Positions 1,526 through 24,209 of a stretch of DNA of 51,419 nucleotides are shown here, piece by piece (the first letter of the stretch is position 1; each line of letters begins with the position of its first letter). The notes beneath the pieces are model-generated. The model was not told the DNA's origin, did not search any database, and saw nothing but the letters and a program-made list of their open reading frames with translations. A program made the translations under genes and the position numbers. The DNA is from a virus (lineage: Duplodnaviria > Caudoviricetes). Where the stretch lies: IMG/VR virus record IMGVR_UViG_3300012943_000010, positions 1 to 51,419 of that record; one strand, 5' to 3'.

Positions 1526-2546
1526 TGAAACCTACCTCCTCGGCGTACCACCGCACGGTATCGCTTAATTTTTGGACAAAATTCTGTGGATTAGGTGACC
1601 AACCTAAAGCCCTGATAACCGAGTTGTCGATAGCGTATCGAAGGTCATCCGTGGGCCTAGCGAGGACATTATGTTCCACGTGAAACGGTCCCTCGGTAAG
1701 CCCGAGGTTCAACATGACATCGTGGACAGCCTTAACGAACTGATAATTTGTCAGCTCCTTCTCTCCCCCTATGCAGTATCTAAGCCCGTTCTCTCCCCGA
1801 AGGAATACCGTCTCGATCGCTTCGCAATGATCCTCCACGAAAAGCCAGTCGCGCATCTGAGCACCGCTTCCGAAAAGGATCGCTGGCTTCCGAGCTAGGA
1901 AGCTTCGGAAGGTCTGGGGGAGGAGCTTTTCGTGGTGCTGGTGAGGGCCGAAGTTATTCGAGCAGTTCGTTACCCGGACTTGGGTTCCGTAAGTCTCGAA
2001 GTAAGCCAGAGCGATCAGGTCGCTCGAAGCCTTGGAAGCTGCGTAGGGAGACCGGGGACGTATCGGGCTCTCCTCGAAAAAGGGCTCGTCTAAGAATCCT
2101 AGCTCTCCGAATACCTCGTCCGTGCTGACGTGGATAAAGGGACGGTTCGGAGTTCCCCCGTGGAGCTGGCGCCATTCCTCCAGGAGGTTCCAGGTTCCCA
2201 TGATGTTTGTGGTCATGAAGTCCTTAGGGCCCGCTATCGAACGGCAGACGTGAGACTCCGCGGCGAAGTGAAAGATAACCTCCGGGTGGTGGTGCTGCAG
2301 CACTCGGGCAACGACAGCCTGATCCCTGATGTCGACCTTCTCGAAGAACACCCGAGCCGAGCAGTCGTTCGCGCCGATATAGGACAGAACTCCGGTCGAG
2401 TCCGATGCGTAAGTCTCGGCGTCCATGATAAGGATCGTGTCTCTCGGGTATTTACGAAGCCAGTATTTTACGAAGTTCGTGCCGATAAAACCGAAGCCGC
2501 CAGTCACCGCTATTTTTCTCATATCGTATTCCGATTTGTGATTCAT
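1515..2546 (-). CDS. rmlB: dTDP-glucose 4,6-dehydratase
   Basis: VTGGFGFIG, HFAAESHV, STDEVFG, YAASK, CSNNFGPHQHHEKLLP, RDWLFVEDH. Confidence 0.95.
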   Translation of the reverse strand: MNHKSEYDMRKIAVTGGFGFIGTNFVKYWLRKYPRDTILIMDAETYASDSTGVLSYIGANDCSARVFFEKVDIRDQAVVARVLQHHHPEVIFHFAAESHVCRSIAGPKDFMTTNIMGTWNLLEEWRQLHGGTPNRPFIHVSTDEVFGELGFLDEPFFEESPIRPRSPYAASKASSDLIALAYFETYGTQVRVTNCSNNFGPHQHHEKLLPQTFRSFLARKPAILFGSGAQMRDWLFVEDHCEAIETVFLRGENGLRYCIGGEKELTNYQFVKAVHDVMLNLGLTEGPFHVEHNVLARPTDDLRYAIDNSVIRALGWSPNPQNFVQKLSDTVRWYAEEVGFNVL

Positions 2547-6288: not shown

Positions 6289-7401
6289 TTAAATTACGTC
6301 CCACTTCTCAGCGACAGGGCCTATCGGACACTTCTCGACGAGACAGTTAATGATGTCCTGTCGGCGTTCGTTGACCTTCGTAAGGGTAAGGGTATTTTTG
6401 ATGAAGTCGCGACTCTGGCGCCACTGGTATCCGCCATCGAGTTCTCCTCGAAGGAAGCTGTCGAGCTTAACTTCGAAGTCCTTCGAGTCGGTGTAATTGA
6501 TGATACCGGGGCGGCGCCACTCCTCGAAATCAGGAGCCAGCGTAACCGCACCTGCATGGGTTGCTTCGATCCAGGCGATATTAGACTTCGAGCGGTTGAA
6601 GGGACAGTCGTCGAGGGGAACTATCATCAGGGCCGGTCTGGTCTTTTCAAGGAACCCTAGATAGTCGATAGGATCGATCGTCTCCGTAAGGATCACGTTC
6701 GAGTCTTTAATACCTGGCACTTCGTCCAGCATCTCAATGGTGAGCCAGAACGGTTCCCCGATAAAGTTGTAAGTCCAATCCAGGTGCTTCCCTATCGCCT
6801 CCTTAAGGGCCGGCGTTACGCAGAGGAGGTCTTTATCGTGAGTCCCGCTCCCACGCCAAGCGACGATCTTATTCTGGTGAGGAGGTTTAGCGGCCTCGGT
6901 CAACGGGTTCATCAGGTCCATATCGTAGGCGTTCGGAACCACCACGACCTTCGAAGGATCGAGCAGGAGACCGGGCTCGCTCTGCGCTCCCTTCGCGATA
7001 CGCCTGATGATCGACCTTACCTGCTCCTGGAGGAAAGGAGTCGACACCGAGACGATATCCGCCTTCGCCAGCATTGTGCTCATGTTGTTCTGTATGGCCG
7101 GGTTGTTGTAAATACGGCTCGCCTTATTAAAGAGCGGAACCCCGTAAAGCCAGTCGTCATAATCGATCCAGACCTGCTTACGATTTGCCTTTGCCATGCT
7201 TATCATCTTGACGTGGTTCTCTAGGGCCGGTCTCTGGAGGAATACCGCGTCCACGCCCTTGAGAGACGCCCAGTTCATCGGCTGTCCGACTTGCACCGAT
7301 AAGTTGCCCCAGCTCCGGACGAGAGACTGGAGCGGGCCCACTCCCCGATAAAGGCTCGTCGCATCGGTCGGCTCGGGCATCTGACACATTAGATTTATCA
7401 T
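6289..7401 (-). CDS. Glycosyltransferase, GT-B fold (GT4-like)
   Basis: YRG..P, FLQRP, IDYDDW, ADIVSVSTPFL, VVVPNA, IVAWRGSGTHDKDL, PLDDCPFNRSKSNIAWIEA. Confidence 0.8.
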   Translation of the reverse strand: MINLMCQMPEPTDATSLYRGVGPLQSLVRSWGNLSVQVGQPMNWASLKGVDAVFLQRPALENHVKMISMAKANRKQVWIDYDDWLYGVPLFNKASRIYNNPAIQNNMSTMLAKADIVSVSTPFLQEQVRSIIRRIAKGAQSEPGLLLDPSKVVVVPNAYDMDLMNPLTEAAKPPHQNKIVAWRGSGTHDKDLLCVTPALKEAIGKHLDWTYNFIGEPFWLTIEMLDEVPGIKDSNVILTETIDPIDYLGFLEKTRPALMIVPLDDCPFNRSKSNIAWIEATHAGAVTLAPDFEEWRRPGIINYTDSKDFEVKLDSFLRGELDGGYQWRQSRDFIKNTLTLTKVNERRQDIINCLVEKCPIGPVAEKWDVI

Positions 7402-7708
7402 CGGTCGGAACTCCACACAGGCTATTGAGGAAAGCAGTCACGACAGCCCTTTGAAGCTGTCCATTATCGGCAAAAACTTCACAGGCTCCCGCGATCTTTA
7501 TCGCCCAAACGCAGCTATCGAGCCAACGGATTTGAGGCTCGAAGTCGAACGCAAGGGCTTCGAGCAGCACCGCGAGGTGAGCCCACTTTTTCGAAGGTTC
7601 GAAGTTATCGGGAAGTACGAGGAGTCCCTGGTAACGGGAGTCTAAGGCGCGCCTTAGGTCGGCGTCGATGGAAGTCGAGACGGATAACATAAGTCGGTCT
7701 CCTCGCAT
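7178..7708 (-). CDS. Hypothetical protein (3' part overlaps the glycosyltransferase)
   Basis: ORF follows a sigma70-like promoter; the last ~70 codons overlap the next gene and may not be functional. Confidence 0.45.
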   Translation of the reverse strand: MRGDRLMLSVSTSIDADLRRALDSRYQGLLVLPDNFEPSKKWAHLAVLLEALAFDFEPQIRWLDSCVWAIKIAGACEVFADNGQLQRAVVTAFLNSLCGVPTDDKSNVSDARADRCDEPLSGSGPAPVSRPELGQLIGASRTADELGVSQGRGRGIPPETGPREPRQDDKHGKGKS

Positions 7709-7756: not shown

Positions 7757-7948
7757 TTACTGGACCGCTTGCCCTTCCGCGTTCGTTGTGGTTGTTGACG
7801 CTGTTGACGGAGCCGCAGCGGTCGCTTGGGCCGCCTTCTCCGAGAGGTCGAACTGCTTCCGAGCCAGCTCCAGGACTTCGATTTTCTGCTCGTATGTGCA
7901 GTTCTTAAGGGAACGGACTACGTTCTGAGTGGTCGTTAAAAGATCCAT
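7757..7948 (-). CDS. Small hypothetical protein
   Basis: AAGGAG RBS before ATG 7948 (MDLLTTTQ...); Ala/Thr-rich tail. Confidence 0.6.
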   Translation of the reverse strand: MDLLTTTQNVVRSLKNCTYEQKIEVLELARKQFDLSEKAAQATAAAPSTASTTTTNAEGQAVQ

Positions 7949-8108
7949 GCTTATGTTCTCCTTCGGGTGAGTAAGCTCACCTAAAATATGCCTCGAACGA
8001 CGCACTTCGTCGATCAGTAAATCAACGCTATCGAGAAAAACTAGAGTCTTCACTTGGCCGCGTCGAAAGTCTAAGACCTTTTCTGCGAACGAGTCGAGCC
8101 CTATAGGA

Positions 8109-8495
8109 TTAGTGGTAGACAACGCTCGATACCTCCAACAGGTCGTCCTTGATTTCGATTGCCTCGGACCAAGGATACTTATCCGGATGCGCAAGGTCTA
8201 GCAAGGAGTTAAGCCCTGCGTAGTTCCCAGCGCGTAAGCGATAAGCGATACCGTCTAGAGCTGCGGAGTGCGAAACGTAATGCCCGTGCCGCTTCGAGAG
8301 CTTCGCGGCTCTCTTTACAATCGAGAGGAACCGCTCTTTTTCAGCTTCCCGAAAAGCCTCGGACACGGGAGGGGGAACCGGCTTCGGAGCTGGCGGAGGC
8401 TTCGGGGTTCCCTTCTTAAAGGTGGACCTATCGATCGCCTGATATACGACTGGGACGAACTGAACGTACCCGAGTTTTATAAGCTTACTAGCCAT
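8109..8495 (-). CDS. Hypothetical protein with Pro-rich linker and small helical domain
   Basis: KRAAKLSK..HYVSHSAALDGIA...GNYAGL; overlaps neighbour. Confidence 0.6.
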   Translation of the reverse strand: MASKLIKLGYVQFVPVVYQAIDRSTFKKGTPKPPPAPKPVPPPVSEAFREAEKERFLSIVKRAAKLSKRHGHYVSHSAALDGIAYRLRAGNYAGLNSLLDLAHPDKYPWSEAIEIKDDLLEVSSVVYH

Positions 8496-8787
8496 TATCG
8501 ATAACCTCCTTCTTTACAGGGATGATGACAAAGACCTTCTTTTCAGCATCCTTAACCCGGCGATAGAGTTCATCATCCAGGGCTCGGGCTTTATCCATAG
8601 TCTTTTGCCCGACTTTTACCTTGCACGCTCGAACTAAATCCGCGTAATCGACGAACCCCATCCTTTCAGCACATAACTCTCTAGCCGCGAACGATCCTGC
8701 AGCGTCGCCTAGGTCTTGTAAACAGAAGCAAATCCTATTGATATAGGTCTGGAAAGTATCGATCCTTTCCCGTCTGGAGTTGCTCAT
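8488..8787 (-). CDS. Hypothetical protein
   Basis: ATGA-coupled to the upstream gene. Confidence 0.6.
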   Translation of the reverse strand: MSNSRRERIDTFQTYINRICFCLQDLGDAAGSFAARELCAERMGFVDYADLVRACKVKVGQKTMDKARALDDELYRRVKDAEKKVFVIIPVKKEVIDNG

Positions 8788-9599
8788 CGACGGACTCCGT
8801 GGAGCTTCGCAGACAGGGCGTTCAGCTCCGACCTCTCCTGCTCCGGGCTTACCTGGGTGGGCTCCGGCTGGTTGTCCCCGAAGTAATCATCAACTCGGGC
8901 TCCTTCCTTCACGGAGTTAAAGATCGCCTGGAGGTCGGCGATATCGTCTCCTGACATCTCCGCAGCGTCGTACCCGAGCCGAGTATCGATAAGCTCCTTC
9001 GAGACTCCGTGGCGCTTAAATGCGTCCAGGATGCGTTGGATACGGGGAGACAGCTCGACCTTAGTTCCTTCCGCTAAGACCTCTCGGCAACGCTCCGAAG
9101 CGGCGTCAACGATATCACGGGGAACGACTCCGAGAATGCAGTTCCGCATACGCCGAGCCTTGGCACTCTCGATAAGCTCCGACAGTTCGGTCGGATCAGT
9201 AACCGCACGGACAGCTCCGTTAGCCTTGCGCTCGTGTCGGACGATAAAGGTATCGACCTTCGAGAAGTTCTTCTCCATATCGAAGCAGAACGCTTCGCAC
9301 GTTGTCTGTTTATCGCCGCTTTCGAGAGTGCGAGCGCCGTACTCGATGTTCTCATAGAGCTGCGCGATCGCTTCCGCGAGTCGGATCGACGGCCCGGTTA
9401 TGGTCTGTTTCCCCCTAGGAAGGGCGTAGTGAGCGATCCGAGCAAGGGAAGGTCTTTCGCAAGCGGCCATGATTTGGTCGAAAACATCTTTCTGATTTCG
9501 GCGGAAGTTCTTCGCGACGATAAGCTTGCCCTGGATAACCTGGACGGCCTTACTCTGCTCGATTTCGACAACTGCGCTGGAAGCTTTAACGATGCTCAT
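8784..9599 (-). CDS. Putative single-strand annealing recombinase
   Basis: YALPRG..ITGPSIRLAEAIA..Y.N, A.AR..RNCIL pattern; ATGA-coupled downstream of the RecE-like nuclease. Confidence 0.65.
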   Translation of the reverse strand: MSIVKASSAVVEIEQSKAVQVIQGKLIVAKNFRRNQKDVFDQIMAACERPSLARIAHYALPRGKQTITGPSIRLAEAIAQLYENIEYGARTLESGDKQTTCEAFCFDMEKNFSKVDTFIVRHERKANGAVRAVTDPTELSELIESAKARRMRNCILGVVPRDIVDAASERCREVLAEGTKVELSPRIQRILDAFKRHGVSKELIDTRLGYDAAEMSGDDIADLQAIFNSVKEGARVDDYFGDNQPEPTQVSPEQERSELNALSAKLHGVRR

Positions 9600-10459
9600 A
9601 CGATTGGTCCTTTCATCGCCCAGTAAGGGAGAGAGATAAATTTCATGTTCGATTGATAACTCGGCCACTTGTAGTTTGGATCGGCCTTGCTTGCGTCAGT
9701 GCAGGACTTAATCAGGTCGAGAGCCCTGCGATAGTCGCGGCGTCCGACTTCGAGAGAGGGCCTGTCGAGCAGGTAAACCGCAACGTCGAAGGGAGCTGTC
9801 TTACCGACAACGATCATCGCGTGGTAACGGATCGGTTCCTCGTCGAGGATTTCGATACCTTCGGCATACATGGCCATCTGAAAGTCGTAACGGTAGTTCC
9901 AAATCGAACGGGAAAAATCCTCCTCCCGAACGCTGTCGGCGGTCTTAAGATCGACCAGGATTCCTTTTTCTGGGACGTAATAGTCGGGGCGGAACCGAAG
10001 CGCAAGCCCTGTCTGCGGATCGGTATAGTATCCGGACTGCTCCGCGATACCGTCTCTCAGTAAAGCCGCTGCGTCCTCGTGCTTATAGACGTTCTCGCAC
10101 ATGCGTTCGAGGTCGTCGAGTTCTTGCTGCGTTACCGAAATCATACCGACGTTATCGAGCTTCCACTGATCCTTTAGAGCCTTACTCCCCTTCCCTTCGA
10201 ACTTCGGCGCAACGATGTGCCTATCGAAGAACGTAGGCCCTTCGAGGATTGCGCAATGTGCGAGGTTGCCGAAGCGTTGAGAGGGAGTTTGTTTCCTCTC
10301 GGGCTGGTTCCCGAGGATCGTTTTCTCGTAGTAAGCCAGTGGGGAAAGTTCAATTACGTCTACGATCTGAGAGCGGGAACTTGCTGAGCGGTCGCTGTGA
10401 TAGTCCTCTATAGACTGTCCAGGACGCCAGCCGTTTTGATTATCGGCATTATCGAGCAT
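9596..10459 (-). CDS. PD-(D/E)XK exonuclease (RecE/ExoVIII C-terminal, DUF3799-like)
   Basis: YH...S.S, FG...H..ILE, E.SGY, RFRPDY, LVDLKT, YDFQMAMY. Confidence 0.88.
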   Translation of the reverse strand: MLDNADNQNGWRPGQSIEDYHSDRSASSRSQIVDVIELSPLAYYEKTILGNQPERKQTPSQRFGNLAHCAILEGPTFFDRHIVAPKFEGKGSKALKDQWKLDNVGMISVTQQELDDLERMCENVYKHEDAAALLRDGIAEQSGYYTDPQTGLALRFRPDYYVPEKGILVDLKTADSVREEDFSRSIWNYRYDFQMAMYAEGIEILDEEPIRYHAMIVVGKTAPFDVAVYLLDRPSLEVGRRDYRRALDLIKSCTDASKADPNYKWPSYQSNMKFISLPYWAMKGPIV

Positions 10460-10547
10460 TTAAGCTCCTCCCTTTTAAGGTTCGCGTCTTACACTTGGTA
10501 ATATCTAGCGGCGATCCGAAAAAGGAAAGAACTTTTTTGCATAATTT

Positions 10548-11135
10548 TTAATCGACGTAAAGCCTAGCCAGTATGGTCTTTACTATCTTGGCCATATCCT
10601 CTCGACTCTCGTTCTCCAAGAGTTCGGCTTCCTTAAATACCTTCTGAATATTATCGAGTTTTACAGCCCTAGACCTACACCACTCGGCTGTCTGATCGTC
10701 GGCTCTCTCGATGTGTCGGCGCTTTAAGGTCTGGCTGGAAGCCTTTACTATAAGGATATCTGTCGGTGCTACCATTCGACACTGGCTTAGGAAAGGTGTA
10801 CCGAAAAGTCGGTCTCCTTCGAAGACGATAGCGTAGTCCTTAAGACCGAGTTCTTTCGACCGCGAGAGGAAAGATATAGCGTCTTTCGTGACCTGGAGGG
10901 AGAGCCGATCGGTTCCGGCGAAGGTCTCCGAGCTTGCGTAAATACCGAGGATCACGACACGCTTATTCGGAACGCAGTGGCCACGAAGGAGACCGTACTC
11001 GAACCGGTGGAACGTGCTGTCGCGAGAGAACTCGTCGATAACTTTCCGAACTACTGTCGTCTTACCTGTCGCGGGCTCTCCACCAATCGCAACGATCCGG
11101 CGCCATAATGCGAAGAGTCCGGGGGAAGGTATCAC
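10548..11135 (-). CDS. P-loop nucleotide kinase of the type associated with hydroxymethyl-pyrimidine DNA hypermodification
   Basis: GGEPATGKT, LGIY..ETFAGTDRLS, IVFEGDRLF; GTGA-coupled to the aGPT-Pplase-like gene. Confidence 0.75.
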   Translation of the reverse strand: MIPSPGLFALWRRIVAIGGEPATGKTTVVRKVIDEFSRDSTFHRFEYGLLRGHCVPNKRVVILGIYASSETFAGTDRLSLQVTKDAISFLSRSKELGLKDYAIVFEGDRLFGTPFLSQCRMVAPTDILIVKASSQTLKRRHIERADDQTAEWCRSRAVKLDNIQKVFKEAELLENESREDMAKIVKTILARLYVD

Positions 11136-12100
11136 CTCAGTTCCGACAGCATTTTTTTTCTGTATGTCTCTTTTCGATAGTTCCATAGAACGGTCCAATT
11201 AACGCCCTCCGATACTGCTTCCTGCATGGTTTTAAGTTCTTCGGCCTGAGCGTCAAGGTAAAAGCCAACCCATCTCTTTCCGAAGCGGTATTTTTCATAG
11301 GCGCACAGCGTTGTCTTTAGACTCCAGACTGTGTTCCTCCTGTCGATGGACTTCATTCGGGAGACCAGCATCTCGTACTGTCCCTGGAGGTATCCGGTCT
11401 CCTGGAGCGTAAGCCGGCGTCCTGCAGCACAGCCTAAATCGGGCCGACCGATCGCCAGCGCCAGCCCTCCGCGAACCCCAACGGCCTCGCGCATATCCAG
11501 GGAAGGTGGATCCATCGGGAAGCCAGTAAGCTCGGAGACCGCTTCGAGGTAAGGGAACATCGACAGCCGACCGAACTGATATACCCGGCTCATATCCGCC
11601 GCGGCTCTCTCGTAGGTCGTCCTCGGGTTCGGCGTCAGGAAAGACTGGAATAGGTGCTCCTGCTTAAGCCGACCGACGTTCCCCCGATAGCTCTCCACAA
11701 CGTCCGGAAAGTGGTCTCTCGCTCTCATCCAGCGCCGGTCTGAGTGGAATAGGAGCCGCTGCTTATTCGAGTCCCACCACCGCCGCAGGCGCTCCTGGTC
11801 GATAAGCTCGAAGTCGGGGAACTCGTGAAGGATATAGAACGCTGTCGGAGCCGACAGAGTGCAAGCGTAGAGGAAAGCGAGCCAATACCTCTGCTCGGTA
11901 TTCAGCTCGAAGCGTTCGGCCACGTAGCGCAGCATTCCGAACGCAGGAGACACGTCTCCGGCTTCCAGGCTCTCGGAGTGATACTGCTCGAAGGTCGCCG
12001 GTATTTCAGACGGCAGCGGTGGCCGTGAACATACCAGAGTCTTTCCGTATCTTTTCGAGGACGATCGGGCATCCTCCGAGGGTGTAAGGTTGTTGCTCAA
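11132..12100 (-). CDS. aGPT-Pplase / amino-acid:DNA transferase-like protein
   Basis: GDVSP, EQRYWLAFLY, FHSDRRW, FGRLSMFPYLE, TTLCAYEK, GFYLD; adjacent to the kinase. Confidence 0.75.
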   Translation of the reverse strand: MSNNLTPSEDARSSSKRYGKTLVCSRPPLPSEIPATFEQYHSESLEAGDVSPAFGMLRYVAERFELNTEQRYWLAFLYACTLSAPTAFYILHEFPDFELIDQERLRRWWDSNKQRLLFHSDRRWMRARDHFPDVVESYRGNVGRLKQEHLFQSFLTPNPRTTYERAAADMSRVYQFGRLSMFPYLEAVSELTGFPMDPPSLDMREAVGVRGGLALAIGRPDLGCAAGRRLTLQETGYLQGQYEMLVSRMKSIDRRNTVWSLKTTLCAYEKYRFGKRWVGFYLDAQAEELKTMQEAVSEGVNWTVLWNYRKETYRKKMLSELR

Positions 12101-12728
12101 AATACTCTCCTGGAACTTCCGAACGCTTTAAAATGTCACGAGTCGATGCCCAAAACGTAACGCCATCTCCTTCCAAAGTGGAATACCAGAGCGGCCTTTT
12201 CGGGTTCCGAACCCACCACAGACCAGACCGAGAGGAGAGAACGAAGCCTGCGAAAGAGAACCTTTGCCGGATAAACCACGAGCGAAAGGCTTCCGGGCCG
12301 CGTTCGATGAACTCTCTTAGCACGACCTCACCGTCGTTGTCGGTAACGTAGCGCCGACCGAACTCCTCCTCCCAGTCCACTCTAAAGCGTTGAGAGACCA
12401 CGCCATCGAAGGCGAGAGCTATCGTTTCCCCCTGCTCGACCGAGACGATCGGCTGGTTATTCGAGGGCTGTTTGTGGTCTCCGGAAGTCGAATAATGATT
12501 GTTAAAAATCAGAGCGCACGGGGGCGACTCCTGGAAAGAAGTCGAGCCGAGCAGACAGACAAGATCGTCGATCCTAGAGCTTTTTATCGTCGAGACCTTT
12601 CCGTCTCTTAGATAACTCATGCCGAAGGAATGGAGACCGCGAGACGCAGAGTTCCGCATCAGGCGAGCGATGATATCGAAGTGCCACTGCTTAGGATTTT
12701 TCGCTCGGTACGCGATCACTCCTGACAT
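12006..12728 (-). CDS. Class-II glutamine amidotransferase-like (Ntn) protein with atypical N-terminus
   Basis: GGAGGT RBS before MSGVIAY; RGLHSFG, YSTSG, NNQPI, DGVV, TDNDGE, RNPKRPLW, ASTRDIL. Confidence 0.7.
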   Translation of the reverse strand: MSGVIAYRAKNPKQWHFDIIARLMRNSASRGLHSFGMSYLRDGKVSTIKSSRIDDLVCLLGSTSFQESPPCALIFNNHYSTSGDHKQPSNNQPIVSVEQGETIALAFDGVVSQRFRVDWEEEFGRRYVTDNDGEVVLREFIERGPEAFRSWFIRQRFSFAGFVLSSRSGLWWVRNPKRPLWYSTLEGDGVTFWASTRDILKRSEVPGEYFEQQPYTLGGCPIVLEKIRKDSGMFTATAAV

Positions 12729-12821
12729 TTTTTGCGCTACCTCCAACTCGACAAAGGATTTTTCCGACCACGTAGAAAGCCCACAAAACAAGCATTAAAT
12801 CGGGAATAAGGATCAGATACT

Positions 12822-13670
12822 TCACTTTCGAAACTCCTCGGAGAGCAGCATAGGTATCGTGCTTTTCCAATTAATGCTGTGATGAAGCCGGGAGAACTTG
12901 GTCGACATCATCTTTACCGTGACCGAGGAGGGCTGGTACATCACGGAATAAAAGCTTTTAACGTAGGTTCCCGAGTCGAGGTACATCTCGGTCATACCGC
13001 CAGCGTTTTGCTGAGTCGATACTTGAGTCAGGGAGACCTGATTTACCGTGAAAAGCAGGAGCCCTTTACTCGCGAGATGAGTATAGGTATTCACGTCCTC
13101 GTTGATGCGGCCGACGAAGCGGAAGGGACGATCCGTGCTGCAAATAAAGGAGTTCATACACTTGCGCTTAAGCTTTATCTGCTTCGAAAAAGCCGACTGC
13201 TCTCCCCCGATAAAGTCTCCCCCTTGCGCTATCGCGATGCTGTCCGCGCTCGAAGCCTTATAGAACTTAAGCAGGGCTTCGAAGATCGGATCGAGGTTCC
13301 GAGCCGCCTTAGGAACGTAGGCGAATCGGTCGTTGAAGCGATAATAAAAGCAGGTGTAGTCGTCGTCGAGCTGCATAAAATACTTTATTCCAAGCTCTTT
13401 CGCGACATCGAAGCTCGCGTTGCGGGCGTAGATAATCGCTCTCATATCCTGGAAGTTATCGCCCTGGTCGAACGTCTTCGCGACCGCACTCTTATCGAAA
13501 ATGCGAACCTCATCGCCGTACCGCTCGATATACTCTCCCCGAGTTTTATCGAGGTCATCGACCAGGAGGAAAATGCGGCCGGTGTATCCGAGTCGGCGCA
13601 GACTGGAGTAAGTCTTCACTCGATCCGGACGACCGTTTGTAAGGATAAATACCGCGAAGTCTTCATGCAT
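12822..13670 (-). CDS. TAGT/GREB1-like glycosyltransferase (GT-A; DNA-base glycosylation family)
   Basis: FILTNGRP, ARN, MQLDDDY, MNSF, GRINEDV, TQQNAGGMTEMY. Confidence 0.8.
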   Translation of the reverse strand: MHEDFAVFILTNGRPDRVKTYSSLRRLGYTGRIFLLVDDLDKTRGEYIERYGDEVRIFDKSAVAKTFDQGDNFQDMRAIIYARNASFDVAKELGIKYFMQLDDDYTCFYYRFNDRFAYVPKAARNLDPIFEALLKFYKASSADSIAIAQGGDFIGGEQSAFSKQIKLKRKCMNSFICSTDRPFRFVGRINEDVNTYTHLASKGLLLFTVNQVSLTQVSTQQNAGGMTEMYLDSGTYVKSFYSVMYQPSSVTVKMMSTKFSRLHHSINWKSTIPMLLSEEFRK

Positions 13671-14469
13671 TCCTGTACGCCTCGGCGATCTCGTCCGCTA
13701 GGACTACGAAGCCCTTCTCGATGGCTTTATTAAAGTCGATGATAACCATCGCGCTATCCTCCATCAGGAGTTGAACTTCCTTCGGAGCATGGGCGTAGAA
13801 CTCGGCGAGCTTTTCGTAATTGAAAACGATGTGACGACACGCTGCGAAGCGGAGCAGGTTCTTATCGTTCTCCGAAATTTCGGCCTTGTTTATCGCAGCC
13901 GTGAGCTGAGCGTACTTCGTCGTGTCGTACATCTCGCTATACTCGGGCTTTTCCCCCTTCGGAGTATAGATCGGGGAGACCACCTTCCGGGTGTACTCGA
14001 CTCCTTCGCTATCGTCCTCCTCCTCGGGCTCCGTTGAGAGAACTGGAGGATTTAAGAAGGTGTTGAGACTTTCGAGCTTAAAGCCCGTCATCTCTAAGTT
14101 CGTTCCCTCTCCTATCGTTTCGAGAGTCGTAACGATCTGCTGCAACTTCCCGACGTTCATCTGAGACATTCGAGCAAGCTGGTTATCCGCTACGATATCC
14201 GATAATTCCTGCGCTTCGTTCTCGTAGTCCTGGTAGTCGATAGGGACTTCGGTAAACCCAGCCGCGAACGCTGCAGCAAGCGCACCGTGTCCCTTCGTGA
14301 TAAACCCGGATCGAGTCGAGACCGTTATCGGGCGGCGCCATCCCTGGAAGTTTAGTATCTGCACGAATAGGGCGACCTGATCCGGCCCGTGTTCGTTCGG
14401 GTTCGCTGGATGGGGAACCAGTGTACTCGGATCGACAACGGCCTTGTGAGCGCAGTGAATCGGTATCAT
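13663..14469 (-). CDS. ParB/Srx N-terminal domain fused to a helical domain
   Basis: HPANPNEH, GWRRPITVS, KGHG, IVADN; C-terminal RHIVFNYEKLAEFYAHA..LMEDSAMVIIDF. Confidence 0.8.
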   Translation of the reverse strand: MIPIHCAHKAVVDPSTLVPHPANPNEHGPDQVALFVQILNFQGWRRPITVSTRSGFITKGHGALAAAFAAGFTEVPIDYQDYENEAQELSDIVADNQLARMSQMNVGKLQQIVTTLETIGEGTNLEMTGFKLESLNTFLNPPVLSTEPEEEDDSEGVEYTRKVVSPIYTPKGEKPEYSEMYDTTKYAQLTAAINKAEISENDKNLLRFAACRHIVFNYEKLAEFYAHAPKEVQLLMEDSAMVIIDFNKAIEKGFVVLADEIAEAYRNA

Positions 14470-15275
14470 TGGACGTATCCTTCTCGGGTTTTACGCAACA
14501 CCGCCAGCACTACGTCTGTCGTGTTATTGATGTTCATCGCGGCTTGAAAGAAGTGGCTTAGCTCCATGAACTCGGCGAGGTTCTCCTCGGTAAAGAAAAG
14601 CTGCACCATTCGAACTTGGTTCGAAGCCATGCGCCCGTCCGGAGCCCGAGCCTCTGCTCCGATATAAGGAACCGGCTCCGAAGCTCCTGGAGGTATCGAC
14701 GGAACAAACGCGCTCTCCGACTCTCCTCCTTCGTTGGGAACGTACTCCGATCCAGGCTCGACAGGAGCGCCGACTAAGGTCTCTCCTTCCGGGGAGAGCT
14801 TATATTCGGGAGCCTTTTTAACGCCCAGGAGCTTATCGAGGGCTTTCGTTTCGAGCCCGGTAAGAGACAGGTCGAACGCTGCTACGTTGAGACTGGTCAC
14901 GATCTTTTGCAGCTTACCGGTGTTCATCTCCGACATGCGCTGGAGAGTGTTGTCGGCAACGATATCGGCAAGCTCCTGCTCCTCGTTATCGTAGTCCTGA
15001 TACTCGACCGGCACTTCGGTATATCCAGCCGAGAGAGCAGCGGCCAAAGCTCCGTGGCCTTTCGTGACGAAGTTCGAGCGTGTCGAGACAGTGATCGGTC
15101 TACGCCATCCCTGATAAACCAGGATCGCCTTGAATAACTCGATCTGCTTTTCCCCGTGCTCGTTCGGGTTCGAAGGGTGAGGGTGCAGCGTGCTCGGATC
15201 TTGGATCGAGGTAAATCGACAGCGGACTTGAGCGTTCTCTACGACTGGTTCTTCGGTGCTAGGAACTTCGTTCAT
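14466..15275 (-). CDS. ParB/Srx N-terminal domain protein (paralog of 13663-14469)
   Basis: HPSNPNEH, GWRRPITVS, KGHG, IVADN; C-terminal VRMVQLFF...NTTDVV domain. Confidence 0.8.
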   Translation of the reverse strand: MNEVPSTEEPVVENAQVRCRFTSIQDPSTLHPHPSNPNEHGEKQIELFKAILVYQGWRRPITVSTRSNFVTKGHGALAAALSAGYTEVPVEYQDYDNEEQELADIVADNTLQRMSEMNTGKLQKIVTSLNVAAFDLSLTGLETKALDKLLGVKKAPEYKLSPEGETLVGAPVEPGSEYVPNEGGESESAFVPSIPPGASEPVPYIGAEARAPDGRMASNQVRMVQLFFTEENLAEFMELSHFFQAAMNINNTTDVVLAVLRKTREGYVQ

Positions 15276-16962: not shown

Positions 16963-17829
16963 ATGGAATACATCCCAGCCGATAAAAAGCCGTTGTCACA
17001 AGCCAACTGGAAGGACTTAACCGTCCTCCAACCGTTCAACACCAGGACTCCTATCGAAGCTGCTCCGTTGGAAGAACTTCCCTCCCTCCAGCGGCAGTTC
17101 CGAGAGAACGGAGTCGCGGTGCTGGAGAACTTCATACCCCATGACCTCCTCGACGCTTATTCTCTCGTCCGAGCCCGACTCCCTAAAGACCGTTCTGTGC
17201 CTGATAACTATTGGGCTGGATGGCATTATCCGACTCCGTACCAGGACTGTCGAGAACTTCTCGACCTCGCGACCTATCCAGACCTCCAGGGAGCCTTACA
17301 CGCCCTTATCGGAGCGGAGATGGGCCTGCACCTAGCCCTTACCGGATGGGTAAGCACCGAGCGAAAATGGCACCAGGACACCTATCTTAACCCCGAGTTC
17401 CTTTGGAGCTACTACGCTGCCGCCTGGATCGCGCTGGAGGACGTGGAGCCCGAAGCGGGACCGTTCCAGTACATCAAAGGGAGCCACAACTGGAGGTCTC
17501 TCCGTCAGGATAAGTTATTCGAGTTTATGACTCCCGAGGAGAGGAAAGATCCTCGGTGGCCGACTTTTACGCAGGACGAAGTCGCCCGAGTCTGCGAAGC
17601 CGAAATCGAGAGACAGGGAGAGAAGGTCTCCGAGTTTTTGCCGAAAAAGGGAGACGTTCTCATCTGGCACTCGAACTTAGTCCATAGAGGCTCCGAGCCG
17701 AAGAACCCAGACCTCGAACGTCGGGCGCTTATCTGTCACTACTCCTCGATTGGTCGTCGGGTGGATATGGATCGGCTCTCGCGAAATCCTACAAACGGAC
17801 AGCTTTATTTCGATTTCCGTCGGAACTAA
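16963..17829 (+). CDS. PhyH-family 2OG-Fe(II) dioxygenase
   Basis: AAGGAG RBS; FRENGVAV, WHQD, WIALED, GP...GSH, GDVLIWHSNLVHRG. Confidence 0.88.
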   Translation: MEYIPADKKPLSQANWKDLTVLQPFNTRTPIEAAPLEELPSLQRQFRENGVAVLENFIPHDLLDAYSLVRARLPKDRSVPDNYWAGWHYPTPYQDCRELLDLATYPDLQGALHALIGAEMGLHLALTGWVSTERKWHQDTYLNPEFLWSYYAAAWIALEDVEPEAGPFQYIKGSHNWRSLRQDKLFEFMTPEERKDPRWPTFTQDEVARVCEAEIERQGEKVSEFLPKKGDVLIWHSNLVHRGSEPKNPDLERRALICHYSSIGRRVDMDRLSRNPTNGQLYFDFRRN

Positions 17830-20493: not shown

Positions 20494-20636
20494 TGCAACT
20501 CCTGCTTAAGTCTCTCGTCGTGCAGAGCTTGTTCGTCCCAGAAACGATTACAGGCTCCGCAATACTGCTCCTTCTTGTCCCTCGGGTGCTGTGATATCCG
20601 ACCACAGCCTGGGCATTTAAACTTCTCCCAGCTCAC
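20457..20636 (-). CDS. Small zinc-finger protein (59 aa; not in the ORF track)
   Basis: Manual translation MSWEKFKCPGCGRISQHPRDKKEQYCGACNRFW...; GTGA-coupled. Confidence 0.6.
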   Translation of the reverse strand: MSWEKFKCPGCGRISQHPRDKKEQYCGACNRFWDEQALHDERLKQELQCRKIYTERHAD

Positions 20637-21283
20637 CGGATAAATCCTTCCGGGCCTGCGAGTCCCTTCTCGTGACGATCGCGCATCGAAGGGAAGTACA
20701 TTCCTTTCGCGATCACGTCGTCAGTCTCGAAGGCAACGATCATCAGTCGCGATCCTCCGGAGCGATGTCGAATACCGACTCGGTGCATATCGCGGCTGGT
20801 ATATTCGACGATCTGATTAGGTGCTGAAGTCACGAAAGGAAGCGGTTCGAGCTGAGAGACTTCGGAGAAGAACTTCCCATAGTCGGTCTCGAAAGGGAGA
20901 GCTGGAGGGAGGTCGAGAGGCTTCGACATAAAGTCGGTCTCGCACATGTTTCCCCAGGAGCAGAGCATCAGTCTCCAGTCGTCCATCGTCTTCGCAGACC
21001 TCTCTCTCCCGTCCGCGAGTCGGACGTTCACATCGATATGCCAGCCGTCTCCGAGCAGGTTCGAAGGTCTCCCGTGGAACCAGGAGGAGGGCCGAACCTG
21101 GATCACGTTCGGACGGCCCGACCAGGGGAACTGGTCGAGAGCTTCCCGGAGAGCAGGAGTACACTTCTCGTGATTTACGATCTCGTCGTAGCTGCAAGCA
21201 AAGAACTCCGGACAGTCCCAAATGTCTCGATCCGAAATCGGCTTCGTAATGTTTAGGAACCTGTGGCCGGTGTTGTAAATCAT
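20633..21283 (-). CDS. Putative 2OG-Fe(II) oxygenase-fold protein
   Basis: GWHID (HxD) ... MHR ... SRLMI (distal His and 2OG-binding Arg spacing). Confidence 0.55.
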   Translation of the reverse strand: MIYNTGHRFLNITKPISDRDIWDCPEFFACSYDEIVNHEKCTPALREALDQFPWSGRPNVIQVRPSSWFHGRPSNLLGDGWHIDVNVRLADGRERSAKTMDDWRLMLCSWGNMCETDFMSKPLDLPPALPFETDYGKFFSEVSQLEPLPFVTSAPNQIVEYTSRDMHRVGIRHRSGGSRLMIVAFETDDVIAKGMYFPSMRDRHEKGLAGPEGFIR

Positions 21284-21600
21284 GGCGCTCCCCTTCTCGA
21301 TTTCATTAATGGATACCACCAGGGCTTTTTATTTACTCGGCGCTCCTCGTCTAATTGGAGCATCCGATCCTGGATGTTTTGGATCAGTCGGGCCTTGAAT
21401 AATACCCGGCATTCTACGTTCCAAAGCTCTGCGGAGACTTCCTTAAGGACTGCTATAGCCTCGCTTCGGTGTCGCGACGGAAGGAACGAAATCCAGTCTG
21501 TAAGCTGGACGGTATCGTCTCCTATATCGATTATTTTTTCCATGAACTCAGTCGAAAGATATACCGTTCCGAACCGATCCATACTGGTCTCAACGTCCAT
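21280..21600 (-). CDS. Hypothetical protein
   Basis: TAATG-coupled, GGAGGT RBS. Confidence 0.6.
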   Translation of the reverse strand: MDVETSMDRFGTVYLSTEFMEKIIDIGDDTVQLTDWISFLPSRHRSEAIAVLKEVSAELWNVECRVLFKARLIQNIQDRMLQLDEERRVNKKPWWYPLMKSRRGAP

Positions 21601-23358: not shown

Positions 23359-23625
23359 GTGGGTTCTATTTTGGAGTTTAAAAGACGCAGTGTCCGAACC
23401 GACCTTCGGGGAGTTCCGGTCGAGCAGGAGCGAAGCCTCTCAATGGGAGAGCTGGAGCTTAACAGTATCGAGCTGCACGGCAAGCCAGCACTGGCCTTAA
23501 TTATGACTGATCCAAGTCACACCGGGCTCGTTTACGCTTTCGTCAACACGGACGATCTAGCGGATTTTATTCGTGACCTGACGCAGGCTCTCGGAGAGAT
23601 GAAGATCGCAGGAGGTAAGGCTTAA
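23359..23625 (+). CDS. Hypothetical protein
   Basis: AAGGAGG RBS; TTGCCT-N18-TATGCT upstream; TAATG-coupled to the acyltransferase. Confidence 0.65.
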   Translation: MGSILEFKRRSVRTDLRGVPVEQERSLSMGELELNSIELHGKPALALIMTDPSHTGLVYAFVNTDDLADFIRDLTQALGEMKIAGGKA

Positions 23626-24209
23626 TGGGTTGGATGACAGCGACTCAGCTCGCGAAGTTTAAGTCGGTCGGTCGGGAAGTAAAGATCGCAGACGATGTGG
23701 TCGTCTTCGGGCCGGAGAACATCGAAATCGGTGATAACGTCCGGATCGATACCGGATGTGTTCTCCTCGCCTCCGCAGATGGAGCCTGGATAAAGATCGG
23801 CTCCCATATTCACATCGCTTCGAGAGCTATATTCATGGCCTCGGGAGGTATCGAACTCGGTGATTTTTCGACCGTCAGCTTCCAAGCACAGCTCATATCA
23901 GCATCCGATACTTTCGACGGGAGTTATCTTATCGGGCCCGTCTTCGATCCGGAGTTTATCAAGGTTAAAAAGAGTCCTATCCGAACGCAAATGCACTGCT
24001 CGATCGCAGCCGGGAGTACGCTGCTCCCCGGCGCGTGGATGCTGGAGGGTAGCGTCCTTGGAGCTATGTCGATGCTTAAGGAGAGAACGCAGCCTTGGAC
24101 GATTTACGGTGGTGTTCCGGCTAAGCCGATCGGCACCAGGAGCCTAAAGGCCCTGGCGATGGGAGAGGAATGGGAAGCGGTATTTAATTCGAGGTATCCG
24201 AAAGATTAG
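23625..24209 (+). CDS. vioB: Left-handed beta-helix sugar N-acyltransferase (VioB/AntD-like)
   Basis: FKSVG..VKI, ENIEIGDNVRID..CVL, IGSHIHIA, D.F.G.YL.GP, GAMS, YGGVPAKPIG.RS hexapeptide architecture. Confidence 0.75.
   Translation: MGWMTATQLAKFKSVGREVKIADDVVVFGPENIEIGDNVRIDTGCVLLASADGAWIKIGSHIHIASRAIFMASGGIELGDFSTVSFQAQLISASDTFDGSYLIGPVFDPEFIKVKKSPIRTQMHCSIAAGSTLLPGAWMLEGSVLGAMSMLKERTQPWTIYGGVPAKPIGTRSLKALAMGEEWEAVFNSRYPKD

What the first reader, a model, noticed from the sequence alone, without database searches (positions are those of the whole stretch)
10548..15275. DNA-hypermodification-type operon lacking any visible base-hydroxymethylating enzyme
Seen: ParB, ParB, TAGT-like GT, Ntn amidotransferase-like, aGPT-Pplase-like and P-loop kinase genes, mostly overlapping, behind a sigma70-like promoter. 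Established: kinase plus aGPT-Pplase/AADT act on 5-hmU in DNA, and TAGT GTs act on hydroxymethyl-pyrimidines made by TET/JBP or thymidylate-synthase-like enzymes. I find no TET/JBP, dUMP/dCMP hydroxymethylase, DNA methyltransferase or polymerase here. Inference: either an unrecognised enzyme supplies the hydroxyl handle or the chemistry differs. With phage-made dTDP-rhamnose/viosamine available, a deoxysugar-modified base is possible.
Basis: partly seen in the sequence, partly recalled or inferred. Interest (0 to 1): 0.8.

Follow-up and report, generated by a model that had tools for sequence, protein, structure and literature searches.

The report
Hypermodification operon missing its thymine oxygenase
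A phage gene cluster for decorating thymine in DNA has lost the enzyme that normally prepares the thymine, and in its place carries a sugar-adding enzyme with its own helper protein, a pair that also occurs alone in many small phages with no known way of preparing DNA for it.

Summary
The six genes are real. The complete 51.4 kb phage genome has no TET/JBP, ThyA, ThyX, DNA methyltransferase or polymerase homolog. The sigma70-like promoter was not reproduced.

The operon is a mosaic.
- ParB1, the GATase-like gene, AADT and the kinase match the published ParB-dependent 5mYOX thymidine-hypermodification cluster. The closest whole-genome relative (G004) has ParB-5mYOX-GNAT-GATase-AADT-kinase.
- Here ParB2-TAGT sits where 5mYOX-GNAT sit in G004.
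- ParB2-TAGT is a separate two-gene module. In 79 of 80 related viral loci the GT follows a ParB2-type gene. None of the 80 holds 5mYOX, AADT, GATase or kinase.
- 0 of 12 near-complete genomes with the pair have TET/JBP or ThyA.
- A controlled complex model supports binding of the ParB2 C-terminal domain to TAGT (0.84 against 0.01).

The thymidine branch looks eroded or repurposed. The GATase-like protein lacks its N-terminal Cys (61 of 62 homologs keep it), and AADT has 10 unique changes at conserved sites.

In other viruses the two 2OG oxygenases sit with glycan-type genes, not DNA-modification genes.

Most likely no hydroxymethyl handle is made here. What ParB-TAGT glycosylates is unknown.

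The parts
14466..15275 (-). ParB1: ParB-like protein. Its C-terminal domain is of the type found beside phage 5mYOX thymine dioxygenases.
   Evidence: PHROG 620/498/930 ParB families. 33% identity over 264 aa to the G004 ParB, which precedes a Tet_JBP gene. C-terminal domain 32% identical to the G004 ParB but only 16% to ParB2. N-terminal domain 66% identical (80 of 121) to ParB2. GHGA in place of the GHGR motif.
13663..14469 (-). ParB2: ParB-like partner of the glycosyltransferase. Its C-terminal domain is predicted to bind TAGT.
   Evidence: A ParB2-type gene lies immediately upstream of the GT in 79 of 80 related viral loci. C-terminal domain 49-56% identical to ParBs of loci L104-L108. Complex model ipSAE 0.84 against a best control of 0.01.
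12822..13670 (-). TAGT-family GT-A glycosyltransferase.
   Evidence: PF20691, E 2.2e-33. phrog_842, E 8e-76. Keeps all 63 invariant columns of a 27-sequence alignment, including the DDD at 102-104. AF2 model pLDDT 83.6; nearest solved folds are GT-A enzymes such as TarP and AvpGT, TM about 0.45-0.5.
12729..12821 (-). 93-nt non-coding spacer between TAGT and the GATase-like gene, with a GGAGGT ribosome-binding site before the ATG at 12728. Possibly the junction between the two modules.
   Evidence: Sequence read. The junction reading is inference from the module comparison.
12006..12728 (-). Class II (Ntn) glutamine-amidotransferase-like protein lacking the catalytic residues. Probably a pseudoenzyme.
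   Evidence: Codon 2 is TCA (Ser) where 61 of 62 homologs with an intact N-terminus have Cys. R to H in the HxRYSTSG motif and N to D in the NG motif. 6 of 37 near-invariant columns deviate, the most of 62 sequences. Pfam scores below cut-off.
11132..12100 (-). Amino acid:DNA transferase (AADT, formerly aGPT-Pplase) homolog. Start codon uncertain: the source's own gene call is 267 aa.
   Evidence: PF18724, E 5e-19. 52 homologs, all carrying PF18724. Differs at 10 positions that are at least 90% conserved in 23 distant homologs and kept by its 7 closest homologs, which deviate at 0-2.
10548..11198 (-). P-loop kinase of the type that follows AADT in thymidine-hypermodification clusters (putative 5-hmU DNA kinase).
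   Evidence: Walker A GGEPATGKT. Homolog directly downstream of AADT in 56 of 84 related loci. Only 2 of 22 near-invariant columns deviate. Ploopntkinase3 is weak, 14.9 bits.

Best explanation
The operon is a chimera of two DNA-modification modules, and the phage makes no hydroxymethyl-pyrimidine handle.

Module 1 (ParB1 ... GATase-like, AADT, kinase) is what remains of a ParB-dependent 5mYOX thymidine-hypermodification operon. In that pathway 5mYOX, helped by ParB, oxidises T to 5hmU in DNA. The kinase phosphorylates the 5hmU, and AADT with tailoring enzymes installs an amino-acid-derived group. In this lineage the 5mYOX and the adjacent GNAT were lost, and the slot between ParB and the GATase is occupied by module 2.

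Module 2 (ParB2 + TAGT-family GT-A glycosyltransferase) is a self-contained, widely mobile two-gene cassette. It normally sits just upstream of the terminase genes of small phages that have neither 5mYOX nor thymidylate-synthase homologs. The C-terminal domain of ParB2 binds the GT and probably holds it on DNA, as published for ParB with 5mYOX. The acceptor is not a phage-made 5hm-pyrimidine and remains unknown.

Without 5hmU, module 1 has no ancestral substrate. Its GATase-like protein has become a pseudoenzyme and its AADT has diverged at otherwise fixed positions. This branch is therefore decaying or repurposed.

Shown here: gene identities, the absences, the synteny with G004, the module's independence in other genomes, the residue losses, and the modelled ParB2-TAGT interface.
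Inferred: the order of events (loss and replacement), inactivity of the AADT branch, and that the target of ParB2-TAGT is DNA.
For: 1. Known architecture. PMC13229309 (section 5 read) states that ParB-dependent clade C1 5mYOXs are 'consistently linked' with GATases, P-loop kinases and AADTs.

2. AADT relatives.
- Of 84 related loci, 83 have the GATase directly upstream and 56 the kinase downstream.
- 69 of 84 hold a 5mYOX by an HMM built here. 9 of the 15 without one are cut off just upstream of the GATase.

3. Closest relative G004 (49,946 bp, terminal repeats).
- It shares 42 of 77 window ORFs.
- Its operon reads ParB, Tet_JBP (E 7.6e-28), GNAT, GATase, AADT, kinase.
- It lacks TAGT.

4. ParB domains. 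The ParB1 C-terminal domain matches the G004 ParB (32%). The ParB2 C-terminal domain matches GT-linked ParBs (49-56%).

5. ParB2-TAGT stands alone elsewhere.
- At least 529 viral stretches encode a relative of the GT. Of the best 80, 79 have a ParB2-type gene directly upstream and the 80th is truncated.
- 0 of 80 have 5mYOX, AADT, GATase or kinase.
- 67 of 80 have a ~400-aa ORF family about 1.2 kb downstream on the same strand. The one member scanned (L104) is Terminase_6N.
- PF12851 is found in 0 of 48 records, including 0 of 12 that are at least 90% complete. PF00303 is found in 0 of those 12.
- Both are also absent from Lactobacillus phage phi jlb1, halovirus HHTV-2 and an E. coli phage record.

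6. Complex model. TAGT with ParB2 residues 140-268 scored ipSAE 0.84 (three runs 0.83-0.86) against a best control of 0.01. The runs agree in at least 76% of contacts and the partner's pLDDT is at least 79. That mark was reached by 58 of 80 solved complexes and 2 of 110 mismatched pairs, counts that hold only roughly because my own alignments were used.

7. Erosion of module 1.
- GATase-like: Cys to Ser (61 of 62 others keep Cys), R to H and N to D at motif positions. TCA differs from TGY at two bases.
- AADT: 10 window-only deviations.

8. TAGT keeps every invariant column.
Against: 1. All six ORFs are intact. The GATase-like gene has a strong RBS. One homolog at 49% identity (P0081) shares the Ser and the N to D changes. 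This suggests a maintained, non-catalytic or altered role rather than simple decay.

2. The kinase shows no erosion: 2 of 22 columns deviate.

3. G002 is a second complete phage (99.6 kb). It has ParB, GATase with Cys intact, AADT, GNAT, kinase and a radical SAM gene, yet no Tet_JBP, ThyA or ThyX hit. An unrecognised source of the hydroxyl may therefore exist in nature.

4. The window has gained two 2OG-Fe(II) oxygenases that G004 lacks, 1.7 and 5.4 kb from the operon.

5. The contexts of the closest AADT and GATase homologs (50-62% identity, from Logan contigs) could not be fetched. The ancestral state therefore rests on G004 and more distant loci.

6. Nothing shows that ParB2-TAGT acts on DNA. 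The nearest solved fold, TarP, glycosylates teichoic acid.

7. Both window ParBs carry GHGA instead of GHGR, with unknown effect.
Confidence: 0.55

Rival explanations
1. An unrecognised hydroxylase replaces 5mYOX. The PhyH-like dioxygenase (16963-17829, +) or the orphan 2OG-Fe(II) dioxygenase (20633-21319, -) oxidises T to 5hmU in DNA, perhaps with ParB1. 5hmU then feeds both TAGT (giving a base-J-like glycosyl-hmU) and kinase/AADT.
For: - Both genes are present in the window and absent from G004, which has a 5mYOX instead.
- Both have an intact HxD...H facial triad. In the second family H82, D84, H167 and R179 are invariant in 26 sequences.
- They lie 1.7 and 5.4 kb from the operon.
- ParB1, the presumed activator of a lost 5mYOX, is retained intact.
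- G002 shows that such operons can exist without any recognised hydroxymethylase.
Against: - PhyH-like relatives in 80 viral loci: 5mYOX, AADT, TAGT and GATase in 0 of 80, ParB in 3 of 80, kinase in 1 of 80. Homologs of the window's methyltransferase-domain gene occur in 42 of 80 and of GT 6289-7416 in 31 of 80.
- 5 of 10 longer homologs are MTase-PhyH fusions and 1 is a sulfotransferase-TPR fusion.
- Relatives of the second oxygenase in 8 loci lie beside epimerase/dehydratase or DegT-type genes in 6 of 8 and never beside ParB or AADT.
- hhalign to phage 5mYOX gives probability 0.2% and 7.3%.
- No TET/JBP chain appears among the listed PDB matches of the second oxygenase's model (pLDDT 93). 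The best matches are ethylene-forming enzyme, MINA53, HygX and SnoK at TM 0.45 or less.
- G002 has no homolog of either oxygenase.
- This rival does not explain the dead GATase.
Confidence: 0.15
2. Retargeting. TAGT puts a hexose on DNA, and the kinase and AADT now act on a sugar hydroxyl (for example the primary C6-OH) instead of the 5hmU hydroxymethyl. The six genes would then form one new pathway, with the GATase-like protein kept as a non-catalytic subunit.
For: - All six ORFs are intact and contiguous on one strand.
- AADT has 10 lineage-specific changes at otherwise fixed sites while remaining a strong PF18724 match, a pattern also expected for a change of substrate.
- The Ser-type GATase-like protein recurs in a second, 49%-identical sequence.
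- The kinase is well conserved.
Against: - No other locus combines TAGT with AADT, GATase or kinase: 0 of 80 TAGT loci and 0 of 84 AADT loci. There is thus no sign of a selected combination.
- The idea presupposes an unknown acceptor for TAGT.
- No chemistry of this kind appears in the papers read.
Confidence: 0.1
3. ParB2-TAGT does not modify DNA bases at all. The GT acts on a protein, on a cell-envelope polymer, or on ParB itself. The operon is then an accidental neighbourhood of a dead thymidine pathway and an unrelated GT.
For: - The nearest solved folds are generic GT-A enzymes led by TarP, a teichoic-acid GlcNAc transferase, at TM 0.45-0.5.
- The GT-linked ParB C-terminal domain has an invariant Tyr/Pro-rich motif (Y159, Y168, P170, P175) that lies in the modelled interface.
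Against: - The GT is a strong member of PF20691 and phrog_842. That family includes the T6 enzyme that extends glucosyl-hmC on DNA (passage read in PMC13390438).
- It is coupled to a ParB-fold protein in 79 of 80 loci and sits beside a ~400-aa ORF family in 67 of 80, whose one scanned member is a large terminase subunit.
- Phage ParB folds are known as fused or separate partners of DNA methyltransferases and 5mYOX (passages read).
Confidence: 0.12
4. The handle comes from outside the phage: a host-encoded or co-resident prophage-encoded 5mYOX or hydroxymethylase supplies 5hmU or 5hmC.
For: Only that the phage itself encodes none. The host is unknown.
Against: - In the 5mYOX survey of PMC13229309, only 1.5% of the superfamily is bacterial (section 5).
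- ParB-5mYOX pairing is reported as relatively cognate-specific (section 13).
- This rival does not explain the loss of GATase catalytic residues.
Confidence: 0.05

Closest known systems
ParB-dependent clade C1 5mYOX thymine-dioxygenase clusters of phages (O'Toole et al., PNAS 2026, PMC13229309; abstract and sections 5, 12 and 13 read)
   Same: A ParB homolog without an obvious DNA-binding domain, encoded with a GATase, a P-loop kinase and an AADT. The closest relative G004 has exactly this cluster with a Tet_JBP gene.
   Different: The defining enzyme, 5mYOX, is absent from the whole genome. A second ParB and a TAGT glycosyltransferase occupy its place. The GATase-like protein lacks its catalytic residues.
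Thymidine hypermodification by 5-hmU DNA kinase plus AADT/aGPT-Pplase (Lee et al. 2018, 2022; recalled, and seen only as cited in PMC11955845 and PMC13229309)
   Same: AADT (PF18724) followed by a P-loop kinase. The order GATase-AADT-kinase is conserved in 83 and 56 of 84 related loci.
   Different: Those phages obtain 5hmU from a dUMP hydroxymethylase and their own polymerase, or from a 5mYOX. This phage has none of the three.
TAGT family PF20691, including the T6-type beta-glucosyl-HMC alpha-glucosyltransferase (passage read in PMC13390438; phrog_842 label)
   Same: Strong family match, GT-A fold and DxD motif.
   Different: Known members act on hmC-derived acceptors made through ThyA-like or TET enzymes. 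This clade is coupled to a ParB in 79 of 80 loci and occurs in near-complete genomes with neither enzyme, 0 of 12.
Base J synthesis: JBP thymidine hydroxylase plus glucosyltransferase (as summarised in PMC13229309)
   Same: If 5hmU were present, TAGT could make a glycosyl-hmU.
   Different: No JBP/TET homolog is present, so this route is not available as encoded.
ParB-fold fusions to DNA methyltransferases in phages and prophages (Kaljevic et al., PNAS 2025, PMC12704722; passages read)
   Same: A ParB N-terminal fold attached to a DNA-modifying enzyme in phage late regions. phrog_498 matches only the ParB part of both window proteins.
   Different: Here the ParB is a separate polypeptide, and its C-terminal domain is modelled to bind a glycosyltransferase.

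Membership tests
ParB-dependent 5mYOX thymidine-hypermodification cluster | A 5mYOX (Tet_JBP, PF12851) gene in the cluster or genome | tested here: not met
   0 six-frame matches at E 10 or less. The custom 5mYOX HMM found nothing in any ORF of 50 aa or more. tblastn with the G004 5mYOX gave a best E of 1.2. Positive control: G004, E 4.5e-30.
ParB-dependent 5mYOX thymidine-hypermodification cluster | An adjacent ParB homolog with a nucleotide-binding domain and a C-terminal domain | tested here: met
   ParB1 aligns over 264-271 aa with the G004 ParB (E 7e-39 to 1.5e-42). The C-terminal domain is 32% identical.
ParB-dependent 5mYOX thymidine-hypermodification cluster | Linked GATase, AADT and P-loop kinase genes | tested here: met
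   Homologs are in the same order as in 83 (GATase) and 56 (kinase) of 84 loci.
ParB-dependent 5mYOX thymidine-hypermodification cluster | 5hmU or a derivative in the DNA | not testable with these tools
   Needs nucleoside LC-MS.
TAGT (PF20691) DNA glycosyltransferases | Profile match above the curated cut-off | tested here: met
   116.4 bits against 27.5. phrog_842, E 8e-76.
TAGT (PF20691) DNA glycosylltransferases | GT-A fold with a DxD motif | tested here: met
   AF2 model pLDDT 83.6, pTM 0.83. GT-A enzymes are the top PDB matches. D102-D104 are invariant.
TAGT (PF20691) DNA glycosyltransferases | Genomic association with a TET/JBP or thymidylate-synthase-like enzyme that makes the acceptor | tested here: not met
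   Neither is present in the window. 5mYOX is absent from all 80 related loci. Both are absent from all 12 near-complete genomes.
Class II (Ntn) glutamine amidotransferase | N-terminal Cys nucleophile after the initiator Met | tested here: not met
   Met-Ser (ATG TCA) behind a GGAGGT RBS. 61 of 62 homologs have Met-Cys. The role of Cys1 is recalled from GlmS/PurF.
Class II (Ntn) glutamine amidotransferase | Conserved Arg of the HxRYSTSG motif and Asn of the NG (oxyanion) motif | tested here: not met
   R to H and N to D at columns at least 95% conserved in 61 homologs (alignment). Their roles are recalled by analogy to GlmS Arg73 and Asn98.
Class II (Ntn) glutamine amidotransferase | Pfam GATase_6 or GATase_7 above the gathering score | tested here: not met
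   20.0 against 27 and 22.1 against 25 bits.
AADT / aGPT-Pplase (PF18724) | Profile match above the cut-off | tested here: met
   69.4 bits against 26.2.
AADT / aGPT-Pplase (PF18724) | Retention of family-invariant residues | tested here: inconclusive
   37 columns are invariant across 31 sequences, the window included. The window alone differs at 10 columns that are at least 90% conserved. The catalytic residues are not known to me.
5-hmU DNA kinase (P-loop nucleotide kinase) | Walker A motif and homology to the kinases that follow AADT | tested here: met
   GGEPATGKT. tblastn hits in 56 of 84 loci. 2 of 22 conserved columns deviate. Pfam Ploopntkinase3 is below cut-off, 14.9 against 27.
ParB-CTPase fold | Conserved Arg of the nucleotide-binding GxxR motif | tested here: not met
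   Both window ParBs read GHGA, where the 9 compared ParBs have GH(G/T/Q/C/H)R. PMC12704722 reports that mutating the P-motif Arg abolishes NTP binding (passage). PMC13229309 reports that such mutations do not abolish 5mYOX activation (abstract).

The most novel reading that the evidence does not exclude
The ParB-TAGT pair is a self-sufficient, widespread DNA glycosylation system. A ParB-fold protein uses its C-terminal domain to hold a GT-A enzyme on phage DNA around packaging. The acceptor is not a hydroxymethyl pyrimidine. It could be a canonical base, a DNA end or another group, which would be a new class of DNA sugar modification needing no precursor base. In this phage the pair has been captured into a thymidine-hypermodification operon. 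The surviving kinase and AADT may further decorate the sugar.
Probability: 0.2. Interest if true: 0.85.

Novelty: new variant of a known kind. Interest (0 to 1): 0.6.

Why it matters
Post-replicative thymidine hypermodification with a ParB-activated 5mYOX was described only in 2025-2026. This genome is a natural experiment in which the priming oxygenase is gone and the downstream genes remain. It shows which parts erode (the GATase active site, AADT conserved sites) and which do not (the kinase, both ParBs).

The analysis also isolates a two-gene ParB + GT-A module. At least 529 viral stretches encode a relative of the GT. The module occurs in cultured Lactobacillus, E. coli and haloarchaeal viruses. 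It sits next to the terminase genes in genomes that have no known way to make the acceptor that this GT family is thought to need. That makes one question directly testable with cultured phages: what does a TET-associated glycosyltransferase glycosylate when there is no TET? The finding also extends the emerging idea that ParB folds serve as adaptors for DNA-modifying enzymes from oxygenases and methyltransferases to glycosyltransferases.

Tried and rejected
1. Hidden TET/JBP or thymidylate synthase. Rejected by Pfam six-frame searches, a custom 5mYOX HMM with filters off and tblastn with the G004 5mYOX.

2. The 20633-21319 oxygenase as a cryptic 5mYOX. Rejected for now.
- hhalign probability to 5mYOX is 0.2%.
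- Atlas and PDB structural neighbours are PhyH, JmjC, EFE, HygX and SnoK-type enzymes.
- Its relatives sit in sugar-gene contexts.

3. The PhyH-like gene as the thymine hydroxylase. Rejected for now, on co-occurrence with MTase and GT genes and on MTase fusions.

4. The sugar-nucleotide genes as donors for TAGT. No support, because G004 has the same genes without TAGT.

5. Searches that gave little.
- Megablast of the operon against cultured phages: no match.
- The search for related loci with the single AADT protein: no relative.
- tblastn of the kinase and GATase against cultured phages: 4 and 1 weak records.

6. Genome-contig scan for AADT. It gave only 4 MAG contigs, labelled Thermotogota, Muribaculaceae, Sediminibacterium and Paceibacterota. 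No host could be assigned.

7. Literature on a stand-alone ParB-GT module. Searches found no paper that characterises it. Pyle et al. list ParB-like proteins only among the neighbours of GTs. Iyer et al. 2013 is not held and is known to me only from recall and from citations in the papers read.

8. Supplements are closed. Dataset S10 and Figs S3-S4 of PMC13229309 may list contigs of this kind. The main text says thousands of mined contigs lack a TET/JBP annotation.

Full report
WHAT IS THERE

The window is a complete virus record of 51,419 bp. Its first and last 123 bp are identical. IMG/VR classes it as having direct terminal repeats, and CheckV rates it 100% complete. It is a Mu-like-tailed phage. 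Pfam finds a Mu-type portal, MuF, baseplate J, gp48, DNA-circulation protein, sheath and tube, an E-type capsid and a T4-type large terminase.

The six flagged genes lie head to tail on the minus strand:
- ParB1, 14466-15275;
- ParB2, 13663-14469;
- a TAGT glycosyltransferase, 12822-13670 (PF20691, E 2.2e-33);
- a GATase-like gene, 12006-12728;
- an AADT, 11132-12100 (PF18724, E 5e-19);
- a P-loop kinase, 10548-11198.

By eye there is only an 8-of-12 match.

THE ABSENCE IS REAL

Six-frame profile searches of the whole genome found none of the following: Tet_JBP, ThyA-type synthase, ThyX, C5 or N6/N4 DNA methyltransferase, family A or B polymerase. Pfam scans of 50 other ORFs agree. I built an HMM from phage 5mYOX genes found beside AADT relatives. 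It hits nothing in any window ORF of 50 aa or more, even at E 10 with filters off. The Pfam search does detect the 5mYOX of the nearest relative, so the negative result is meaningful.

WHAT THE OPERON DESCENDS FROM

O'Toole et al. (PMC13229309; abstract and sections 5, 12 and 13 read) describe phage thymine dioxygenases (5mYOX) that need a ParB-like activator. [quoted passage not shown]

I fetched 84 loci encoding AADT relatives.
- 83 have the GATase directly upstream and 56 the kinase directly downstream.
- 69 hold a 5mYOX. 9 of the 15 without one are contigs cut off just upstream of the GATase.

One locus belongs to a true relative of the window phage, G004 (49,946 bp, terminal repeats). It shares 42 of 77 window ORFs, including capsid (76% identity), sheath, terminase, rmlB/C/D, DegT and two GT-like genes. 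Its operon reads ParB, Tet_JBP (E 7.6e-28), GNAT, GATase, AADT, kinase.

The window has ParB1 (an ortholog of the G004 ParB), then ParB2-TAGT where G004 has 5mYOX-GNAT, then a 93-nt spacer and the GATase-like gene.

THE INSERTED PAIR IS AN INDEPENDENT MODULE

At least 529 viral stretches encode a relative of the window's TAGT. Of the best 80:
- 79 have a ParB2-type gene immediately upstream, usually overlapping, and the 80th is truncated at that point;
- none has 5mYOX, AADT, GATase, kinase or either oxygenase;
- 67 have a ~400-aa ORF family about 1.2 kb downstream on the same strand, and the one member scanned (L104) is Terminase_6N.

Tet_JBP is absent from all 48 records tested, including 12 that are at least 90% complete (28-54 kb). 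ThyA is absent from those 12.

Cultured examples show the same pair and the same absences: Lactobacillus phage phi jlb1, halovirus HHTV-2 and E. coli vB_EcoS phages.

GT-linked ParBs share a conserved C-terminal domain (window ParB2 is 49-56% identical to four of them), while their N-terminal domains vary (19-46%). A complex model of TAGT with ParB2 residues 140-268 scored ipSAE 0.84 (runs 0.83-0.86) against 0.01 for the best of three controls. Contacts agreed at 76% or more and the partner's pLDDT was 79 or more. That mark was reached by 58 of 80 solved complexes and 2 of 110 mismatched pairs, and the counts hold only roughly because my own alignments were used. This supports binding but does not show it.

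TAGT keeps every invariant column of its family, and its model is a GT-A fold.

THE THYMIDINE BRANCH IS ALTERED

The GATase-like gene starts at ATG 12728 behind a GGAGGT site, and its second codon is TCA, Ser. In 61 of 62 homologs with an intact N-terminus that residue is Cys, the nucleophile of class II amidotransferases (recalled knowledge). The Arg of HxRYSTSG is His and the Asn of the NG motif is Asp. Altogether 6 of 37 near-invariant columns deviate, the most among 62 sequences.

AADT differs at 10 columns that are at least 90% conserved in 23 distant homologs and that its seven closest homologs keep. Those seven deviate at 0-2 columns. The kinase is not unusual, with 2 of 22 columns deviating.

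Against simple decay:
- every ORF is intact;
- one homolog at 49% identity (P0081) shares the Ser and Asp changes.

This hints at a maintained non-catalytic or changed role.

THE TWO ParBs

Their N-terminal domains are 66% identical to each other (80 of 121). Neither exceeds 46% to any other ParB compared, which suggests duplication or gene conversion within this genome. Their C-terminal domains are unrelated (16%) and match the 5mYOX-type and GT-type partners respectively. Both read GHGA where the nine other ParBs compared have an Arg.

THE TWO OXYGENASES

The PhyH-like gene (PF05721, E 4.9e-18; probable start 16963) has 1,689 homologs.
- Of 10 longer homologs scanned, 5 are fused to class I methyltransferases and 1 to a sulfotransferase with TPR repeats.
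- In 80 viral loci its relatives co-occur with homologs of the window's methyltransferase-domain gene 45847-46368 (42 of 80) and GT 6289-7416 (31 of 80).
- They co-occur with ParB in 3 of 80, the kinase in 1 of 80 and 5mYOX in 0 of 80.

The 20633-21319 protein belongs to an unnamed, mostly viral 2OG-Fe(II) dioxygenase family with invariant H, D, H and R.
- Its 8 viral relatives lie next to epimerase/dehydratase or DegT-type genes in 6 of 8 and never next to ParB or AADT.
- Its model (pLDDT 93) matches generic 2OG oxygenases at TM 0.45 or less, and no TET/JBP chain appears among those listed.

Neither family resembles 5mYOX by hhalign. These genes more likely belong to glycan-tailoring modules. 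They remain the only candidates for a substitute hydroxylase, and both are absent from G004.

A CAUTION

G002 (99.6 kb, rated complete) has ParB, a Cys-type GATase, AADT, GNAT, a Ploopntkinase3 kinase and a radical SAM gene. It has no Tet_JBP, ThyA or ThyX, and no hit to my 5mYOX HMM. Apparently intact pathways without a recognised hydroxymethylase therefore exist. This keeps the hidden-enzyme idea alive in general, although G002 shares neither window oxygenase.

VERDICT

The best reading (confidence 0.55) is a chimeric operon. A ParB-GT cassette with an unknown acceptor, not made by the phage, has replaced the 5mYOX-GNAT part of a ParB-dependent thymidine-hypermodification operon. The remaining GATase-like and AADT genes are now eroded or repurposed.

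This is a new variant of a recently described kind. The more interesting lead is the stand-alone ParB-GT module. In the papers I could search I found no paper that characterises it. Supplements that might list such contigs were closed.

Noticed in passing
window 16963-17829 (+), 45847-46368 (+), 6289-7416 (-): The PhyH-like dioxygenase, the small methyltransferase-domain protein and a GT (phrog_7162) are scattered in this genome. Their homologs co-occur in other viral contigs: MT in 42 of 80 and GT in 31 of 80 PhyH loci. MT-PhyH fusions are common, 5 of 10 scanned. This looks like a GT + MT + dioxygenase glycan-tailoring trio of unknown target.
   Followed up: partly
window 20633-21319 (-): Member of an unnamed, mostly viral 2OG-Fe(II) dioxygenase family with no Pfam model. 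About 215 aa; H82, D84, H167 and R179 are invariant. The AF2 model has pLDDT 93, and the best PDB matches reach TM 0.45 or less. Relatives sit beside sugar-nucleotide genes, several on viral contigs of 110-470 kb.
   Followed up: partly
L104-L183 (related viral loci); L001, L102, L103: The ParB-GT pair sits directly upstream of a conserved ~400-aa ORF family in 67 of 80 loci. The one member scanned (L104) is a large terminase subunit. The pair is also found in bacterial and archaeal viruses. GT-linked ParBs share a conserved C-terminal domain with an invariant Y...Y-x-P...P motif that lies in the modelled interface with the GT.
   Followed up: partly
window 13663-15275 (-): The N-terminal domains of the two tandem ParB genes are 66% identical to each other and at most 46% to any other ParB compared. 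Both carry GHGA instead of GHGR. This suggests gene conversion between two ParBs of different origin.
   Followed up: partly
L026 / G002 (99.6 kb viral record), locus positions 7841-13275: An apparently intact ParB, GATase, AADT, 306-aa unknown, GNAT, kinase, radical SAM operon lies next to terL, in a genome rated complete. No Tet_JBP, ThyA or ThyX homolog was found. The record does have a C5 DNA methyltransferase.
   Followed up: partly
window 956-2546 (-), 46356-47288 (+), 23625-26614: The phage carries rmlC, rmlB, rmlD, a DegT-type aminotransferase, a hexapeptide acyltransferase and a GT9-like gene. Several lie next to the tail-fibre region. Most are shared with G004. The target is unknown; virion or host-surface glycans are possibilities.
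   Followed up: no
window 26628-27992 (-): A 454-aa protein made of RCC1 repeats (PF25390, E 2.6e-50) sits among the tail-fibre and baseplate genes. G004 has no homolog.
   Followed up: no
window 1-975 and 50574-51419 (-): The Mu-type portal gene runs across the ends of the record, with open frames at both ends. The 123-bp terminal repeat may therefore be an assembly overlap of a circularly permuted genome rather than the physical ends.
   Followed up: no
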